Shown here: one piece after another, positions 1,286-43,800 of the stretch
How positions within the stretch are numbered: the first letter of the stretch is position 1
Layout: each line of letters starts with the position of its first letter
Origin: a virus
Lineage: Duplodnaviria; Heunggongvirae; Uroviricota; Caudoviricetes
IMG/VR virus record: IMGVR_UViG_2519899780_000005
Direction: 5' to 3' (one strand)
Length of the DNA: 47,693 nt
Program-made: the position numbers and the translations under genes
Notes under the pieces: generated by a model
What the model saw: the letters and a program-made list of their open reading frames with translations, nothing else
Databases searched by the model: none
Told to the model about the DNA's origin: nothing

Positions 1286-1500
1286 AACCGCAGCACGTTC
1301 TTGCTTAAGACGTGCTGCGGCATAATCCCAATGATTACTCCCTGACAGGATTTGCAGGCCACTCAATATCAGGTGCAGTTGATGTATCAACACGGTTCAG
1401 CAACACCCGATACTTTTTCCAGGCTTCCAGCAATGAGGTTTCTTCCTCCGTTGCAATTTCCAGATCTGCAGCATCCTGAAGCGGCGCAATATGCTCACTG
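1286..1500. repeat. Direct repeat copy B (partner of 236..450)
   Basis: See copy A; includes perfect 11-bp inverted repeat ccgcagcacgt...acgtgctgcgg at ~1286-1318. Confidence 0.7.
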
Positions 1501-1919
1501 GCTACCTGCATCAGGTTGTTTTTTGTTTCTTCCGCCTCCCGGATCCGGAACAGTTTTTCTGCTTCCGTATCCTTCACCCAGGCTGTGCCGTTCCACTTCT
1601 GAAACTCCCCTTCCGGCGATAACCAGGTAACATTTTCCGGTAACGGACCGAGTTCAGAAATAAATAACTCGTCCCCTGACGCTACGTCATAAACCGTTTT
1701 ACCCCGATGGTCTTCAACGAGATGCCACGATGCCTCATCACTGTTGAAAACAGCCACAAAGCCAGCAGGAATATCTGGTGGTGCAATATCGGTACTGTTT
1801 GCTGGCAGACCTGTATGAGGCGGAATATATGCGTCACCTTCACCAATAAATTCATTAGTTCCGGCCAGCAGATTATAAATTTTTATGGTCCGTGCTTGTT
1901 CACTCATTCTGAATGCCAT
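1335..1919 (-). CDS. tfa: Tail fibre assembly protein
   Basis: 194-aa ORF immediately downstream of the side tail fibre gene; recalled similarity to lambda Tfa. Confidence 0.85.
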
Positions 1920-32060: not shown

Positions 32061-32396
32061 ATGAAGTGGATTGTGATTGATACAGTTATCCAGCCATCAT
32101 GCGGAATATCTTTTTCAGTCATATGGAGTAAAATAAAATTAATAATCTGGTATCAATCGGATGCTTTCTTACCTCCTGAAAGTATATTTACACTGACTCA
32201 CACAGGCATCATGCTCAATAACAAAGTGCTGCCTGTAACCATTTACAACGTAGTACCATTCAATAAAACATTCTGGAATTTAATCAAAAACAGCCAGGAA
32301 TGCCCTACAAATACAGATAACGTATTGAATGAATGCTTTAATAACCGTTGCACTCTGCAAATATGTCCTTATGGGCTAAAACAACAAAGTCCATAA
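32061..32396 (+). CDS. Hypothetical Cys-containing 111-aa protein (AT-rich moron at the toxin locus)
   Basis: AAGGAAACTAA-ATG ribosome-binding site; perfect hairpin follows at 32441-32462. Confidence 0.5.
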
Positions 32397-32440
32397 GGAG
32401 TTTACTCACATCTGACAAAATCAATATAAACAGCCCCTCC

Positions 32441-32462
32441 GGAGAGGGGCTGGAGAGTGGCG
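32441..32462. terminator. Perfect 9-bp stem-loop (cagcccctc-cgga-gaggggctg), likely a bidirectional terminator between convergent cargo genes
   Basis: Inverted repeat read directly; T-rich tract follows on the minus strand. Confidence 0.45.
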
Positions 32463-32843
32463 CTATGTGCCATTGCATGGTGCCGGGTGCCTCCCGGTGA
32501 ATTCAGTACCAGCACCTGAATCCGCGATTATCCCATATACCTACTCGCTGATTGCCCCTCCGCACAGGGGGATTCACCATGCCAGTTTCTTTTAACAAAC
32601 TCCCCGCAAACCAGACAACAGTCAACCGCCTGAATTGTGAAGTATTTAAAAATTTCTCCCGCTAACTGATACCCGGCTAACAGTCTGGCGTTTTCTTTTT
32701 CAGCAACGGGAAAGCAGCAACCACCACACCCGCCACCAGCACACCGTCAGCCAGCACTGACATTATCCGGCTGCTGCAATGCCATTCACAAAAACAGTAA
32801 GCAATCACTTTTTACCGTAACCGGTGATAATCCAGATATGTAT

Positions 32844-37923: not shown

Positions 37924-38079
37924 TTACTCCTCAGGTTCGTAAGCTGTGAAGACAGCGACCTCCGTCTGGCCGGTTCGGAGTCGTACCTCGCAGAGGTCTT
38001 TCCTCGTTACCAGTGCCGTCACTATGACGGTTAAACAGATGACGATCAGGGCGATTAACATCGCCTTTTGCTGCTTCAT
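37924..38079 (-). CDS. hok: Hok/Gef family type I toxin (51 aa)
   Basis: MKQQKAMLIALIVICLTVIVTALVTRKDLCEVRLRTGQTEVAVFTAYEPEE matches the recalled Hok family sequence. Confidence 0.85.
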   Translation of the reverse strand: MKQQKAMLIALIVICLTVIVTALVTRKDLCEVRLRTGQTEVAVFTAYEPEE

Positions 38080-38316
38080 AGCCTGCTTCCCCTTGCCTTT
38101 CGGCACGTAAGAGGCTAACCTACATTTGTGAGACATAGATTGGGCCTCAGATTAATGTTAAGCGTCTTGCAGGACGCGAAATGTTAACTGGGGCTTTTCT
38201 CTATCTGCCTTTCAGTGTTCATGCCTGAGACAGATAGCCTCAAGCACCCGCAGCCATTCTACTTAACTCACGTCACCTCGCCAATATGAAATCAATCAGA
38301 AAGGTGATCCATAAAA

Positions 38317-41363: not shown

Positions 41364-41783
41364 ATGGTTCATGAAGATAAAGCGCGTAAAGAGTTCGCCA
41401 GTAGGCTTGCGCTAGCCTGTGAAAACGCTGGTTATGAACAACATGGAAGGCAGGCAGAAATTGCCCGTCGAATGAAATTAACACCAAAAGCGGTTAGCAA
41501 ATGGTTTAATGGCGAAACAATTCCTCGCCGGGAGAAATTAAGGGAATTAGCAACACTAATAGGAACAACACCAACCTATCTTTTGGGAGAGGATACAGAA
41601 GAAAGTGGACAGGTACGTTTCTATCAGGAGTTAAATCCAAGACAAAAAATCATCATTGACCTTCTGGACGAGCTCCCTGACAGTGAGACAGATGAACTTT
41701 TAAAAACTCTTGAAGAGAAAAAACAGAAGTACAATGCAATTTACGAAGAGTTAGCACGAAAGAAAAAACAAAAAGCCTCTTAA
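41364..41783 (+). CDS. Prophage repressor (XRE-family HTH), in the DicA position
   Basis: …QAEIARRMKLTPKAVSKWFNGETIPRREKLRELATLIG… HTH; heads the ydfA-dicF-dicB-like operon. Confidence 0.75.
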   Translation: MVHEDKARKEFASRLALACENAGYEQHGRQAEIARRMKLTPKAVSKWFNGETIPRREKLRELATLIGTTPTYLLGEDTEESGQVRFYQELNPRQKIIIDLLDELPDSETDELLKTLEEKKQKYNAIYEELARKKKQKAS

Positions 41784-42079
41784 ACCAGCATAAATCCGGT
41801 AGCGCCTTCCTCCGGGTTTGTGCTTCACTTTATCCCATCTCATTTTTTTACACACAAAATGTACCAAAAGTACTTTACAACAATGAACGCAAAGTACATT
41901 ATATACCTGCCACCACCCCGCCCCACAGAATGCAGGGCAATACTTCGAGTTACCAGGCAGTGGTCAGGGGTTAAGTAGCCAGCCCGAGGCGTAAGAACAT
42001 GACGGCAGGGTTCAACTTTAATAACTATGCAGCAGGTTTTTGTTCCGCTACCCCGGCGTTAAGGGGAAATGAGGTCAGC

Positions 42080-42232
42080 ATGGATACTATCGATCTTGGC
42101 AACAACGAATCTCTGGTATGCGGTGTGTTCCCTAACCAGGACGGCACCTTCACCGCGATGACGTATACCAAAAGTAAAACGTTTAAAACCGCAGCTGGCG
42201 CGCATCGCTGGTTAGCAAGAAACACTGACTGA
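42080..42232 (+). CDS. ydfA: YdfA-like small protein (start MDTIDLG)
   Basis: GAGG SD; recalled similarity to Qin YdfA. Confidence 0.5.
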   Translation: MDTIDLGNNESLVCGVFPNQDGTFTAMTYTKSKTFKTAAGAHRWLARNTD

Positions 42233-42243
42233 TGAGGTTGACG

Positions 42244-42582
42244 ATGGAATTTAAAGATTTACCTCCTTCAATCCAGGAGATTGCAGCACACACACTTCGT
42301 CATCGTCTGAACGAACTTGAATTGGAATCGGTAACAAAAAAAGACACTGATAATATGGCTCGTAATGTGCGCGATGCGTTTACTGGGCTGTTTTCAGATA
42401 CAGCTTTAAATATCCATGGCACAGAGGATACAGCAAAACAATTTGCAGAAAAAGAAGTGGAAGATCCCAGCTCAAAGAGCCAGAAACAGCCAAACAACCA
42501 TGAAATTAACGAACTGCTTCTGGCAACAGGCTTCATAAATATTAACGAATATGAACGCCGTAAAAAAATGTTATCTGATTAA
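42244..42582 (+). CDS. YdfB/YdfC-like protein (112 aa, MEFKDLPP…)
   Basis: Position between ydfA and DicF; GAGG SD. Confidence 0.5.
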   Translation: MEFKDLPPSIQEIAAHTLRHRLNELELESVTKKDTDNMARNVRDAFTGLFSDTALNIHGTEDTAKQFAEKEVEDPSSKSQKQPNNHEINELLLATGFININEYERRKKMLSD

Positions 42583-42765
42583 TCCATCAAGATATCTTTT
42601 TAGCATCAGCGTTTCTACGTTATTAAAACCATCAGATTTTAACATAGCTTCGATTCGCTGATTTAAATTGCCAACTAACTGTTGATACTGAGTAGATGGA
42701 AGCATGTGTACCAGCTCCTTGAGAACACAATAACATGCACCAAGTTTTAACTCCTGCTCTGACAT
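42571..42765 (-). CDS. Hypothetical 64-aa protein convergent with the ydfBC-like gene
   Basis: GGAGG 5 nt upstream of ATG; 3' ends of the two genes overlap by ~12 nt. Confidence 0.45.
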   Translation of the reverse strand: MSEQELKLGACYCVLKELVHMLPSTQYQQLVGNLNQRIEAMLKSDGFNNVETLMLKRYLDGLIR

Positions 42766-43104
42766 TTTATCCTCCATTGAGGTTACTGGTTGAGAATGGA
42801 GACCTCTCGTGACAGCGTGTGGTCGTGCGCCGGACACGGATAAGAATCCGGCACTGACAGTTTACTGAAAGGATATTTCCCTGAAAAGTCAGACCATAAC
42901 GCGAAAGCGCACGGCGAGGTAGCTGGTTCATAGATAGCCTGTCGTTAAATTTTCGTCGACCGTGCGCTTCCGGTTGTGGCAATCCGCGAAATGGCGCGGC
43001 GGTAAGTATGGCGGGGTTATTCCTTCCCCCGTTGAGGACACCGGGTTGTCAGGTTGGCCATACGCTTAAGTGACAACCCCGCTGCAACGCCCTCTGTTAT
43101 CAAT

Positions 43105-43162
43105 TTTCTGGTGACGTTTGGCGGTATCAGTTTTACTCCGTGACTGCTCTGCCGCCCTTTTT
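43105..43162 (+). ncRNA. dicF: DicF small regulatory RNA
   Basis: TTTCTGGTGACGTTTGGCGGTATCAGTTTTACTCCGTGACTGCTCTGCCGCCCTTTTT matches recalled E. coli DicF, ending in a terminator hairpin plus U-run. Confidence 0.8.
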
Positions 43163-43331
43163 AAAGTGAATTTTGTGATGTGGTGAATGCGGCTGAGCGC
43201 ACGCGGAACAGTTAAAACCAAAAACAGTGTTATGGGTGGATTCTCTGTATCCGGCGTTAATTGTTAACTGGTTAACGTCACCTGGAGGCACCAGGCACCG
43301 CATCACAAAATTCATTGTTGAGGACGCGATA

Positions 43332-43520
43332 ATGGAAACGTTATTACCAAACGTTAATACGTCTGAAGGTTGTTTTGAAATTGGTGTCACTATCAGTAAC
43401 CCTGTATTTACTGAAGATGCCATTAACAAGAGAAAACACGAACGGGAGCTATTAAATAAAATATGCATTCTTTCAATGCTGGCCCGTTTACGTCCGATAC
43501 AAAAAGGATGCTGGCAATGA
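43332..43520 (+). CDS. dicB: Cell division inhibitor DicB
   Basis: METLLPNVNTSEGCFEIGVTISNPVFTEDAINKRKHERELLNKICILSMLARLRPIQKGCWQ; recalled near-identity to Qin DicB; GAGG SD. Confidence 0.75.
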   Translation: METLLPNVNTSEGCFEIGVTISNPVFTEDAINKRKHERELLNKICILSMLARLRPIQKGCWQ

Positions 43521-43708
43521 ATACAGCATTTGCACTTGTTCTGACAGTTTTTCTTGTTTCCGGAGAGCCAGTTGATATTGCAGTCAGTGTTCACAGGACA
43601 ATGCAGGAGTGTGTGACTGCAGCAACCGAACAGAAAATTCCCGGTAACTGTTACCCGGTCGATAAAGTTATTCACCAGGATAATAACGAAATCCCGGCAG
43701 GTCTTTAA
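43517..43708 (+). CDS. ydfD: YdfD-like small membrane/lysis protein (63 aa)
   Basis: MNTAFALVLTVFLVSGEPVDIAVSV…; start overlaps the dicB stop. Confidence 0.55.
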   Translation: MNTAFALVLTVFLVSGEPVDIAVSVHRTMQECVTAATEQKIPGNCYPVDKVIHQDNNEIPAGL

Positions 43709-43800
43709 AACAGTTCCGTAATAAATATCCGGATTCATTCTTATATGCCAGCAATGGCAGGGATTTGTTCACCCTTAAATCTGTAATGAGGTAAAACAAA

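What the first reader, a model, noticed from the sequence alone, without database searches (positions are those of the whole stretch)
42571..43162. Qin-like dicB operon with DicF sRNA and a convergent, 3'-overlapping small gene
The ydfA, ydfBC, DicF and dicB arrangement is recognisable. A minus-strand 64-aa ORF with a strong GGAGG RBS sits antisense between the ydfBC-like gene and DicF, with ~12 nt 3' overlap. Convergent transcription here could modulate read-through into DicF/dicB, both of which inhibit cell division, or the ORF could be an unannotated small protein.
Basis: partly seen in the sequence, partly recalled or inferred. Interest (0 to 1): 0.5.

Follow-up and report, generated by a model that had tools for sequence, protein, structure and literature searches.

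The report
Swappable reverse small gene beside DicF
The backwards-facing 64-codon reading frame next to the DicF small RNA is a real, conserved prophage gene, one of at least a dozen unrelated small genes that can occupy the same slot behind a shared folded RNA leader, and its protein faintly resembles the stress-response regulator IraP.

Summary
DicF (43105-43157, identical to K-12), dicB, ydfD and ydfA are present. A minus-strand 64-aa ORF (42571-42765) has a GGAGG site 5 nt before its ATG and overlaps the upstream plus-strand gene by 12 nt. Two details are wrong. The plus-strand gene is unrelated to ydfB or ydfC. The ORF is already annotated (RefSeq WP_001295058.1, phrog_4987), though its function is unknown.

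It is a genuine gene: dN/dS is 0.22-0.31, only its frame is open in five diverged versions, and homologs at 34-86% identity occur in Salmonella, Citrobacter and Edwardsiella prophages. They always face against the early-left operon, often without DicF nearby.

The main new result is its 5' leader, three hairpins with the third sequestering the ribosome-binding site. This leader is conserved, shows covariation and has no Rfam match. In other prophages the same leader precedes at least 12 unrelated small ORFs. The slot is where lambda and Rac carry sieB.

The protein models as a three-helix bundle. It is weakly but reproducibly IraP-like and lacks IraP's N-terminal helix. Its function and its promoter are inferred, not shown. 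A DicF-specific interference role is not supported as the main function.

The parts
42571..42765 (-). ORF64, the cargo gene. It encodes a 64-aa soluble protein modelled as a three-helix bundle (RefSeq WP_001295058.1, phrog_4987).
   Evidence: dN/dS 0.22-0.31 against Salmonella and Citrobacter. Only the sense frame is open in 5 versions. AF2 pLDDT 88.7 with helices 3-20, 24-43 and 49-63. GC 35.9% against 51.5% for the window.
42771..42775 (-). Shine-Dalgarno GGAGG, 5 nt upstream of the ATG at 42763-42765.
   Evidence: Sequence. TGGAGGAT(A/G)AAATG is invariant in 5 aligned leaders.
42772..42801 (-). Leader hairpin H3. The anti-SD CUCCAUU (42795-42801) pairs with AAUGGAG (42772-42778) and so sequesters the ribosome-binding site.
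   Evidence: RNAalifold. 91.5% of cells are paired and 2 of 6 pairs covary (AU<->UA in 10 sequences, UA<->AU in 8) among 32 distinct leaders.
42802..42824 (-). Leader hairpin H2. Its position is conserved but its sequence is not; in this window it has two mismatches.
   Evidence: 6 of 10 pairs change on both sides across 32 distinct leaders.
42829..42852 (-). Leader hairpin H1, GCCGGA-N12-UCCGGC. It is nearly invariant and contains U.G and G.U pairs that would be mismatches on the + strand.
   Evidence: It is also retained in K-12 Qin, which lacks the cargo (22.6 bits).
42859..42887 (-). Putative sigma-70 promoter: -35 TTTTCA (42882-42887), 17-nt spacer, -10 TAAACT (42859-42864). This would place the transcription start at about the first base of H1.
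   Evidence: Inference only. The match is 8 of 12, below the scanner's threshold. A -10-like hexamer lies 6-8 nt before H1 in several unrelated upstream backgrounds: TGGTATAAC, TTGAGA-17-GATAAT and TGATATAGG.
42244..42582 (+). Convergent partner gene, ORF116 (112 aa from MEFKDL). Its N-terminal ~100 aa belong to phrog_2151. Its C-terminal tail (~42508-42579) carries the motif L-x-L-x-x-G-x-I-N-x-x-E-Y.
   Evidence: The Salmonella ortholog is 119 aa; dN/dS is 0.39 overall and 0.19 in the tail. RefSeq calls it a C-terminally truncated pseudogene, which these data contradict.
42571..42582 (.). The 12-nt overlap between the 3' ends of the two convergent genes.
   Evidence: Equivalent overlaps of 4, 11 and 33 nt occur in Edwardsiella and two Salmonella contexts.
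42562..42605 (.). AT-rich hairpin flanked by an A-run and a T-run, so it looks like a terminator on both strands. On the minus strand the stem is followed by AUUUUUUU; on the plus strand by CUUUUU.
   Evidence: My folding: -14.4 kcal/mol for the minus strand and -8.4 for the plus. The consensus scanner did not call it because it has fewer than 3 GC pairs. Weak and unverified.
43105..43157 (+). DicF sRNA.
   Evidence: Rfam 76.7 bits. Identical to the 53-nt K-12 DicF.
43332..43520 (+). dicB, cell-division inhibitor.
   Evidence: PF05358 E 1.7e-37; NF049927 132.7 bits.
43517..43708 (+). ydfD (DUF1482).
42080..42232 (+). ydfA homolog (DUF1391).

Best explanation
ORF64 is a genuine protein-coding accessory gene. 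It occupies a reverse-oriented, interchangeable cargo slot in the early-left operon of enterobacterial lambdoid prophages, at the position where lambda and Rac carry sieB.

The unit consists of:
- a weak promoter-like element (inferred);
- a conserved 5' leader of about 90 nt with three hairpins, the last of which pairs an anti-SD (CUCCAUU) with the Shine-Dalgarno sequence;
- the cargo ORF;
- a 3' end that overlaps or abuts the convergent early-left gene.

In other prophages the same leader precedes at least a dozen unrelated small ORFs of 57-101 aa.

Most likely mode of action (inferred): the unit is transcribed from its own promoter, against the direction of the DicA-repressed dicBF-type operon. 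It can therefore be expressed in the lysogen independently of the toxic dicF/dicB genes. Translation is gated by the SD-sequestering hairpin.

The product is a soluble three-helix protein that presumably acts by binding another protein. Its only detectable relative is the RssB anti-adaptor IraP, whose three C-terminal helices it matches in register while lacking the N-terminal helix.

My probabilities:
- real gene within a cassette-plus-leader unit: about 0.9;
- distant IraP homology: about 0.5;
- actual RssB anti-adaptor activity: about 0.2.
For: Coding:
- dN/dS 0.22-0.31 with no indels.
- Only the sense frame is open in 5 versions.
- The start context is invariant.
- The family spans Escherichia, Salmonella, Citrobacter and Edwardsiella at 34-86% identity.

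Arrangement:
- The gene is always opposite to the flanking early-left genes and convergent with its neighbour.
- Low GC, 35.9%.
- Rac and lambda have sieB in the same place and the same orientation.

Leader:
- RNAalifold predicts three hairpins.
- Covariance model R1, built from 5 sequences, finds full-length leaders in loci it was not trained on: L009 at 61.6 bits and L013 at 46.7 bits.
- Across 32 distinct strong leaders, 89.9% of cells are paired against 22-50% in slid controls. 48 cells change on both sides against 16.8+-2.8 in shuffles, with 0 of 500 shuffles reaching the observed value.
- U.G and G.U pairs favour the cargo-sense strand.
- There is no Rfam family here at E<=5.

Variable cargo:
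- The H1 pattern occurs in at least 120 IMG/VR loci, followed by ORF64, ORF69, ORF77, ORF92, ORF91, ORF61, ORF94, ORF73/74, ORF75, ORF63, ORF101 or ORF57. All that match a PHROG are marked unknown function.
- Salmonella L005 carries two such modules in tandem.

IraP link:
- PF10796 is the top hit for 7 of 11 family members. Two pass the gathering score of 23.2 bits, at 24.2 and 24.5 bits.
- hhalign scores 24.5 (E 3e-4). 200 block-shuffled IraP controls average 13.5+-2.8 with a maximum of 23.8, and reversed profiles score 10.
- The AF2 helices of ORF64 (3-20, 24-43, 49-63) coincide with IraP helices 19-38, 42-58 and 67-82 at the +18 offset given by the alignments.
- The same prophage also carries an IraM-family anti-adaptor gene (NF007393, 162 bits).
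Against: - No transcript, transcription-start or translation data were available. The promoter is a weak 8/12 match that the scanner did not call.
- The covariation counts come from alignments fitted to the model, and H1 is nearly invariant, so it is uninformative.
- The window's own H2 has two mismatches, and its leader fold is not better than shuffles (z -0.69).
- The window ORF scores only 14.4 bits (E 0.062) on PF10796, and nothing on NCBIfam IraP, whose cutoff is 78.
- hhalign gives a probability of only 33-41%.
- ORF64 lacks IraP residues 1-18. L9S in that N-terminal coiled coil reduces IraP activity (PMC4428439).
- No PADLOC defence model matches it.
Confidence: 0.6

Rival explanations
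1. Superinfection-exclusion or anti-phage cargo. The slot would be a sieB-like defence hotspot, and ORF64, like the other cargos, would protect the lysogen against incoming phages rather than tune host stress responses.
For: It has the same position and orientation as sieB in Rac and lambda. The slot holds hypervariable, unrelated small cargos behind a common leader. That pattern is typical of arms-race loci such as the P2/P4 hotspots (PMC9122126, listed). One cargo is weakly GhoS-like.
Against: No PADLOC hit for ORF64, ORF69 or their relatives. ORF64 is a soluble helical protein, whereas I recall SieB to be a membrane protein (not tested here). There is no sequence or leader similarity to sieB.
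Confidence: 0.25
2. The main function would be RNA-level: convergent transcription or antisense pairing from the ORF64 unit would limit read-through from the early-left promoter into the toxic dicF/dicB genes.
For: The layout is convergent with a 12-nt overlap. A hairpin with flanking A- and T-runs at the junction could terminate in both directions. The promoter-like element and H1 are retained even in K-12 Qin, which has no cargo.
Against: The family and its leader occur in loci without DicF or dicB. The protein is under purifying selection and conserved down to 34% identity. The terminator-like stem is weak and the scanner did not call it. Distant contexts show no such terminator.
Confidence: 0.12
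3. A functional pair with the convergent partner. ORF64 would bind or regulate the conserved C-terminal tail of the gene it overlaps, for example as a small regulator and anti-regulator module of the prophage's early programme.
For: The partners of ORF64-family members in four contexts share a C-terminal motif, L-x-L-x-x-G-x-[IM]-[NS]-x-x-E-[YF], although their N-terminal parts are unrelated (116, 119, 74 and 186 aa). The two distant tails match at BLASTP E 1.8e-6. The tail has the lowest dN/dS, 0.19. The tail and ORF64 form one low-GC block and travel together in 29 IMG/VR loci.
Against: In Citrobacter ORF64 follows ydfA directly and no tail-bearing partner gene was called. Linkage could simply reflect a mosaic recombination boundary. 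No interaction test was possible. The match between the E. coli-type tails and the distant ones was made by eye.
Confidence: 0.15
4. Chance ORF or annotation artefact on the antisense strand of an AT-rich stretch.
For: It is short, sits in low-GC sequence, has no characterised homolog and gives no tblastn hit in 50,697 deposited phage genomes.
Against: dN/dS 0.22-0.31, no frame disruption in four genera, an invariant SD-ATG context, a confident AF2 fold and a full-length PHROG match.
Confidence: 0.02

Closest known systems
sieB locus of lambda and of the Rac prophage (superinfection exclusion gene embedded backwards in the PL / early-left operon)
   Same: It has the same position and orientation. 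sieB is a reverse-oriented gene immediately after the first early-left gene(s), convergent with 0-4 nt overlap. It is followed by a small RNA (KilS in Rac, DicF here), then a cell-division inhibitor (kilR or dicB) and an exonuclease.
   Different: There is no sequence relationship. The conserved three-hairpin leader is absent at sieB (best R1 score 9 bits). ORF64 is 64 aa and soluble, whereas the annotated sieB CDSs are 162 aa (Rac) and 184 aa (lambda).
IraP (PF10796 / NF007598), anti-adaptor that blocks RssB-mediated delivery of RpoS to ClpXP
   Same: Both are small helical enterobacterial proteins. The profile match is weak but reproducible and collinear, ORF64 12-64 against IraP 30-83, with identical predicted helix boundaries. 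NCBI names two family members IraP.
   Different: ORF64 lacks IraP's N-terminal helix including L9. The window protein is below all curated cutoffs. It is prophage-borne rather than next to phoA. No fold-search hit to 8GKV was reported. RssB binding is untested.
dicBF operon of the Qin cryptic prophage (ydfA-ydfB-ydfC-dicF-dicB-ydfD)
   Same: ydfA, DicF (identical), dicB and ydfD are present in the same order.
   Different: The K-12 ydfB-ydfC segment is replaced by a 600-nt block (42224-42823) carrying ORF116 and the reverse ORF64 unit. The repressor is a different immunity type, with 32 identical residues of 139 against DicA. K-12 keeps only the promoter-like element plus H1 and an H2-like hairpin of the leader.
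Phage morons and variable accessory-gene hotspots (for example the P2/P4 defence hotspots, PMC9122126)
   Same: Low-GC cargo with an apparently autonomous expression signal, inserted between conserved phage genes. Many unrelated alternative cargos occupy one site.
   Different: The cargos here are single tiny ORFs rather than multi-gene defence systems. They share a conserved structured leader that sequesters the SD, a feature I did not find described in my searches.

Membership tests
dicBF (Qin-type) operon | DicF sRNA with its terminator | tested here: met
   RF00039 at 76.7 bits. Identical to the 53-nt K-12 DicF.
dicBF (Qin-type) operon | dicB and ydfD downstream, ydfA upstream | tested here: met
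   PF05358, PF07358 and PF07151 matches. 56/62, 60/63 and 44/50 residues identical to K-12.
dicBF (Qin-type) operon | ydfB and ydfC between ydfA and dicF | tested here: not met
   No DNA homology to K-12 across 42224-42823. No BLASTP hit of ORF116 to YdfB or YdfC.
phrog_4987 (phage protein family of unknown function) | Full-length profile match | tested here: met
   E 3.1e-49, residues 1-64 of 64.
IraP anti-adaptor (PF10796 / NF007598) | Score above the curated profile cutoff | tested here: not met
   The window ORF scores 14.4 bits against a cutoff of 23.2 on Pfam, and has no NCBIfam hit. The relatives P0006 and P0008 just pass Pfam at 24.2 and 24.5 bits. They are far below the NCBIfam equivalog cutoff, scoring 26.8 and 17.3 against 78.
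IraP anti-adaptor (PF10796 / NF007598) | Collinear profile-profile similarity and matching helix boundaries | tested here: inconclusive
   hhalign E 3e-4 to 5e-4, probability 30-41%. 1 of 200 block-shuffled controls reached 23.8 against the real score of 24.5. Helix boundaries coincide at offset +18.
IraP anti-adaptor (PF10796 / NF007598) | N-terminal coiled coil (residues 1-35, including L9) implicated in activity | tested here: not met
   ORF64 aligns only from about IraP residue 19-30 onward and has no equivalent of residues 1-18. The importance of L9S comes from PMC4428439.
IraP anti-adaptor (PF10796 / NF007598) | Fold match to the solved IraP structure (8GKV) | tested here: not met
IraP anti-adaptor (PF10796 / NF007598) | Binds RssB and stabilises RpoS | not testable with these tools
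   Needs two-hybrid or pull-down assays and RpoS half-life measurements.
SieB superinfection exclusion | Reverse-oriented gene after the first early-left gene(s), convergent with them | tested here: met
   Compare.
SieB superinfection exclusion | Sequence homology to SieB and a shared upstream region | tested here: not met
   No SieB family appears among the Pfam hits of ORF64. Leader model R1 scores at most 9.3 bits in the Rac and lambda sieB regions.
Type I toxin-antitoxin (small ORF with a structured, SD-sequestering leader and antisense RNA) | Small hydrophobic or membrane toxin, with a dedicated antisense sRNA | tested here: not met
   ORF64 is modelled as a soluble amphipathic three-helix bundle. 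No antisense sRNA family was detected. SD sequestration is the only shared trait.
Moron / autonomous accessory cassette | Deviant base composition and its own promoter and terminator, independent of the flanking operon | tested here: inconclusive
   The GC criterion is met: 35.9% against 51.5%. The promoter is inferred from recurrent -10-like hexamers 6-8 nt before H1 but is weak in the window. The terminator-like hairpin is weak.

The most novel reading that the evidence does not exclude
The three-hairpin leader (H1-H2-H3, with an anti-SD) would be an undescribed cis-regulatory RNA. It would define a widespread plug-in slot in enterobacterial lambdoid prophages, keeping a rotating set of tiny effector proteins transcribed but translationally gated in the lysogen. 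ORF64 itself would be a truncated, phage-borne IraP-type anti-adaptor. Together with the IraM-family gene in the same prophage, it would let the O104:H4-type prophage raise RpoS levels in its host.
Probability: 0.15. Interest if true: 0.75.

Novelty: new variant of a known kind. Interest (0 to 1): 0.5.

Why it matters
As filed, the finding is mostly ordinary: a known dicBF-type locus plus a hypothetical protein that is already annotated. The follow-up adds three things.

1. A conserved structured leader with covariation support and no Rfam family precedes at least a dozen unrelated small ORFs. These sit at the sieB position of many E. coli, Salmonella, Citrobacter and Edwardsiella prophages, and the leader region is also found in deposited phage genomes such as phiP27. 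That gives a simple handle, the leader, for harvesting uncharacterised small prophage effectors. It also gives a testable translational-control element.

2. ORF64 is a candidate truncated IraP-like protein in a prophage of the 2011 outbreak lineage. The same prophage also encodes an IraM-family anti-adaptor. This suggests, without showing, that the prophage may influence RpoS stability.

3. The RefSeq pseudogene call for the partner gene is probably wrong.

Tried and rejected
- K-12 comparison: I expected ydfB/ydfC and found a replacement block instead.
- tblastn of ORF64 and ORF69 against 50,697 phage records: no match.
- Species-representative genome scan: patterns matched but no tblastn-confirmed relative.
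- Full HMMER search of 1.84 billion representatives: only 6 clusters, and IraP was not reached.
- BLASTP of ORF64 against E. coli IraP: nothing.
- Solved-structure sequence search: only noise.
- PADLOC: no hits.
- ORF69 against ORF64 or IraP by hhalign: unrelated, score 9.1. These served as negative controls.
- Consensus promoter and terminator scans: nothing called at the expected places in the window, L009 or L013.
- Expression values in the supplements of an O104:H4 RNA-seq paper: the ORF64 locus tag was not found in the held text.
- Literature searches for the RefSeq accession and for a sieB-slot hotspot: nothing specific.
- Leader model R1 against the sieB regions of Rac and lambda: no match.
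- I rejected the longer 88-aa GTG-initiated reading. It has no RBS, and all homologs begin at the conserved SD-ATG.
Full report
**1. What is at the coordinates**

The window is a complete lambdoid prophage of about 47.7 kb inserted in ompW. It is 99.9% identical to one in E. coli O104:H4 2011C-3493.

On the + strand, in order:
- a DicA-position HTH repressor (41364-41783);
- ydfA/DUF1391 (42080-42232);
- a 116-aa ORF (42232-42582; RefSeq starts it at 42244);
- DicF;
- dicB (43332-43520);
- ydfD (43517-43708);
- an exonuclease, xis and int.

DicF is an Rfam match of 76.7 bits at 43106-43157. The 53-nt K-12 DicF is found 100% identical at 43105-43157.

On the minus strand, 42571-42765 encodes a 64-aa protein starting MSEQELK. 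GGAGG lies 5 nt before its ATG, and it overlaps the 116-aa ORF by 12 nt at the 3' ends.

**2. Two corrections**

The plus-strand ORF is not ydfB- or ydfC-like.
- K-12 Qin aligns only to 42042-42223 (ydfA, 90%) and to 42824-43800 (96.8%). The 600 nt in between are a different block.
- BLASTP finds no similarity to YdfB or YdfC.
- Its first ~100 residues belong to phrog_2151, a 212-aa family that is full length in O157:H7 prophages.

The minus-strand ORF is not unannotated. It is RefSeq WP_001295058.1, 'hypothetical protein', and it matches phrog_4987 end to end at E 3e-49.

**3. Is ORF64 a real gene? Yes**

- Homologs with the same length and the same start occur in Salmonella (86% identity), Citrobacter (72%), a 70%-identical cluster that carries no source name, Edwardsiella tarda (45%) and a second Salmonella group (34-39%).
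- Pairwise dN/dS among the E. coli, Salmonella and Citrobacter genes is 0.22-0.31. There are no indels, and substitutions are enriched at third positions.
- In five diverged versions only the ORF64 frame is open. The other five frames carry 2-9 stops each.
- AlphaFold2 with a 7-sequence alignment gives a confident three-helix bundle: pLDDT 88.7, helices 3-20, 24-43 and 49-63.
- The family is very narrow. A full HMMER pass over 1.84 billion representatives returns six clusters.
- tblastn finds it in none of 50,697 deposited phage genomes.
- About 151 of 5,426 complete E. coli genomes carry it. One strain has an 11-bp deletion that frameshifts the C-terminus.

**4. The context is conserved, but it is not tied to DicF**

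In every locus recovered, the small gene faces against the surrounding early-left genes and converges on its neighbour. The overlap is 12 nt here, 33 nt in Salmonella L005, 4 nt in Edwardsiella L009 and 11 nt in Salmonella L013. In Citrobacter there is a 41-nt gap instead.

DicF is absent from L005, L009 and L013 and from several E. coli-type IMG/VR loci. It does not exclude interference as a by-product.

The partner genes differ in their N-terminal parts (116, 119, 74 and 186 aa; the last has an Xre-type HTH). They nevertheless share a C-terminal tail motif, L-x-L-x-x-G-x-[IM]-[NS]-x-x-E-[YF]. The tail has the lowest dN/dS, 0.19, while the gene as a whole is at 0.39. The RefSeq 'pseudogene' call is therefore probably wrong. 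The tail plus ORF64 forms one low-GC block of 31-36% against 51.5% for the window.

**5. The leader and the slot: the main new result**

O157:H7 prophages carry, at the same site, a different convergent 69-aa ORF (WP_001133037.1). It shares with the window the ~90 nt upstream of the ATG. Salmonella L005 carries both modules in tandem.

RNAalifold on five leaders predicts three hairpins:
- H1: (G)CCGGAU...GUCCGG(C).
- H2: conserved in position but variable in sequence.
- H3: CUCCAUU pairs with AAUGGAG of the Shine-Dalgarno region.

A covariance model built from these five (R1) finds full-length leaders upstream of the distant ORF64 homologs, which were not in the training set. L009 scores 61.6 bits and L013 scores 46.7 bits. 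It also finds a remnant in K-12 Qin at 22.6 bits.

Of these, 50 give strong R1 matches, 32 of them distinct. On that alignment:
- 89.9% of cells are paired, against 22-50% when the partners are slid.
- 48 cells change on both sides, against 16.8+-2.8 in shuffles (0 of 500 shuffles reach this).
- H2 has 6 of 10 covarying pairs.
- The anti-SD:SD helix has 2 of 6 covarying pairs.

Caveats: the alignment is fitted to the model, H1 is nearly invariant, and the window's own H2 is imperfect (z -0.69 for the window leader alone).

U.G and G.U pairs in H1 and H2 would be C.A or A.C mismatches on the other strand. This points to the cargo-sense RNA as the functional one.

Rfam has nothing here at E<=5.

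Downstream of the leader the cargo differs: ORF64, ORF69, ORF77, ORF92, ORF91, ORF61, ORF94, ORF73/74, ORF75, ORF63, ORF101 and ORF57.
- Those that match a PHROG are all marked 'unknown function'.
- ORF94 is marginally GhoS-like, 21.2 bits against a cutoff of 21, and ORF63 looks like a zinc ribbon.

The leader region also occurs in 38 deposited phage records, including phiP27 and ompW-integrated prophages.

**6. Promoter (inferred)**

The scanner calls no promoter upstream of ORF64. However, a -10-like hexamer lies 6-8 nt before H1 in unrelated upstream backgrounds:
- TAAACT with TTTTCA 17 nt upstream, in the window and most E. coli loci;
- TGGTATAAC in Salmonella;
- TTGAGA-17-GATAAT in the L048, L077 and L103 group;
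- TGATATAGG in L013.

This would put the transcription start at about the first base of H1. It remains an inference.

**7. Position**

Rac and lambda have the same layout. The first early-left gene(s) come first, then a reverse-oriented sieB (convergent, 0-4 nt overlap), then KilS sRNA and kilR in Rac or ral...kil in lambda, and then the exonuclease. ORF64 therefore sits in the 'sieB slot'. R1 does not match the sieB upstream regions, and ORF64 shows no similarity to SieB.

**8. What the protein resembles**

Evidence for an IraP link:
- The only recurring family signal is IraP (PF10796). It is the top hit for 7 of 11 members. Two pass the gathering score, at 24.2 and 24.5 bits against 23.2. 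The window protein scores 14.4 bits, E 0.062.
- NCBI itself names the Citrobacter and Edwardsiella members 'IraP'.
- hhalign of the family against 13 IraP sequences gives E 3-5e-4 and probability 30-41%, in the same register as Pfam.
- In my control, 200 block-shuffled IraP profiles scored 13.5+-2.8 with a maximum of 23.8, against 24.5 for the real one. Reversed profiles scored 10.
- The unrelated ORF69 scores 9.1.
- AF2 helices of IraP (19-38, 42-58, 67-82) coincide with those of ORF64 at the +18 offset.

Evidence against:
- BLASTP finds nothing.
- The NCBIfam equivalog cutoff is far from met.
- ORF64 lacks IraP's N-terminal helix, where L9S reduces activity (PMC4428439).

I rate distant homology at about 0.5 and RssB anti-adaptor activity at about 0.2.

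The same prophage carries a bona fide IraM-family gene at 32061-32396 (NF007393, 162 bits). Anti-adaptor cargo in this element is therefore not far-fetched.

**9. Verdict**

The finding as filed is largely a known locus plus an annotated hypothetical gene. The DicF-centred mechanism is not supported as the main role.

What is there is a real small gene in a reverse-oriented, hypervariable cargo slot. The slot is defined by a conserved structured leader that sequesters the SD and has no Rfam family. I did not find it described in my searches.

The function of ORF64 is unproven. The best lead is an IraP-like protein binder, and the main rival is a sieB-like exclusion or defence role.

Noticed in passing
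window 32061-32396 (+), next to the STnc100 RNA at 32422-32611 (-): An IraM-family RssB anti-adaptor gene (NF007393, 162 bits against a cutoff of 121) sits as a reverse-oriented insert between the late-region esterase gene and the tRNA cluster. The same prophage thus carries a recognised anti-adaptor family gene in addition to the IraP-like ORF64.
   Followed up: partly
window 42244-42582 (+): RefSeq annotates only 42244-42394 as a C-terminally truncated pseudogene. The full 112/116-aa ORF has a 119-aa Salmonella ortholog with dN/dS 0.39 (0.19 in the tail), so it is probably an intact gene.
   Followed up: yes
L005 6001-7500 (Salmonella Gifsy-like prophage): Two leader-cargo modules lie in tandem. 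One is a 200-aa phrog_2151 gene with a convergent ORF69; the other is a 119-aa variant with a convergent ORF64. Each has its own copy of the leader.
   Followed up: partly
L002 3540-3636 (-) = K-12 Qin, between ydfC and dicF: K-12 keeps the promoter-like element, H1 and an H2-like hairpin (CUCCAC/GUGGAG) of the leader, but has no H3 and no cargo (R1 22.6 bits). If the promoter is real, K-12 would make an RNA antisense to ydfC.
   Followed up: no
window ~42876-42893 (+), and most related loci: Just upstream of the leader, most loci have the inverted repeat CCCTGA-(AAAG)-TCAGGG. On the early-left strand it reads CCCTGAAAAGTCAGGG, which from memory resembles lambda boxB (GCCCTGAAAAAGGGC). In this window the repeat is imperfect (TCCCTGAAAAGTCAGACC). 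It overlaps the putative -35.
   Followed up: no
L167 3906-4003 (Rac prophage, K-12): Rac carries the annotated sRNA KilS between sieB and kilR. This is the same relative position as DicF between ORF64 and dicB, so the layout of reverse gene, then sRNA, then division inhibitor is parallel in the two prophages.
   Followed up: no
IMG/VR loci L095, L136, L140 (cargo ORF94): One alternative cargo behind the same leader is marginally similar to the GhoS antitoxin/endoribonuclease: PF11080 at 21.2 bits against a cutoff of 21, E 2.8e-4.
   Followed up: no
L017 ~1525 (E. coli O16:H6 CU37RT-2): An 11-bp deletion frameshifts the last 7 codons of ORF64 and removes part of the junction hairpin, in a locus where dicB is also fragmented. 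RefSeq annotates no gene there.
   Followed up: yes
window 37924-38249 (-): A hokD/sok type I toxin-antitoxin lies in the early-right region (Rfam sok 120.5 bits). An Rfam IS009 match of 225 bits lies at 1378-1576 (-).
   Followed up: no
window 41364-41783 (+): The repressor at the DicA position shares only 32 identical residues of 139 with K-12 DicA. The immunity region therefore differs from Qin even though the dicF-dicB-ydfD block is ~97% identical.
   Followed up: no
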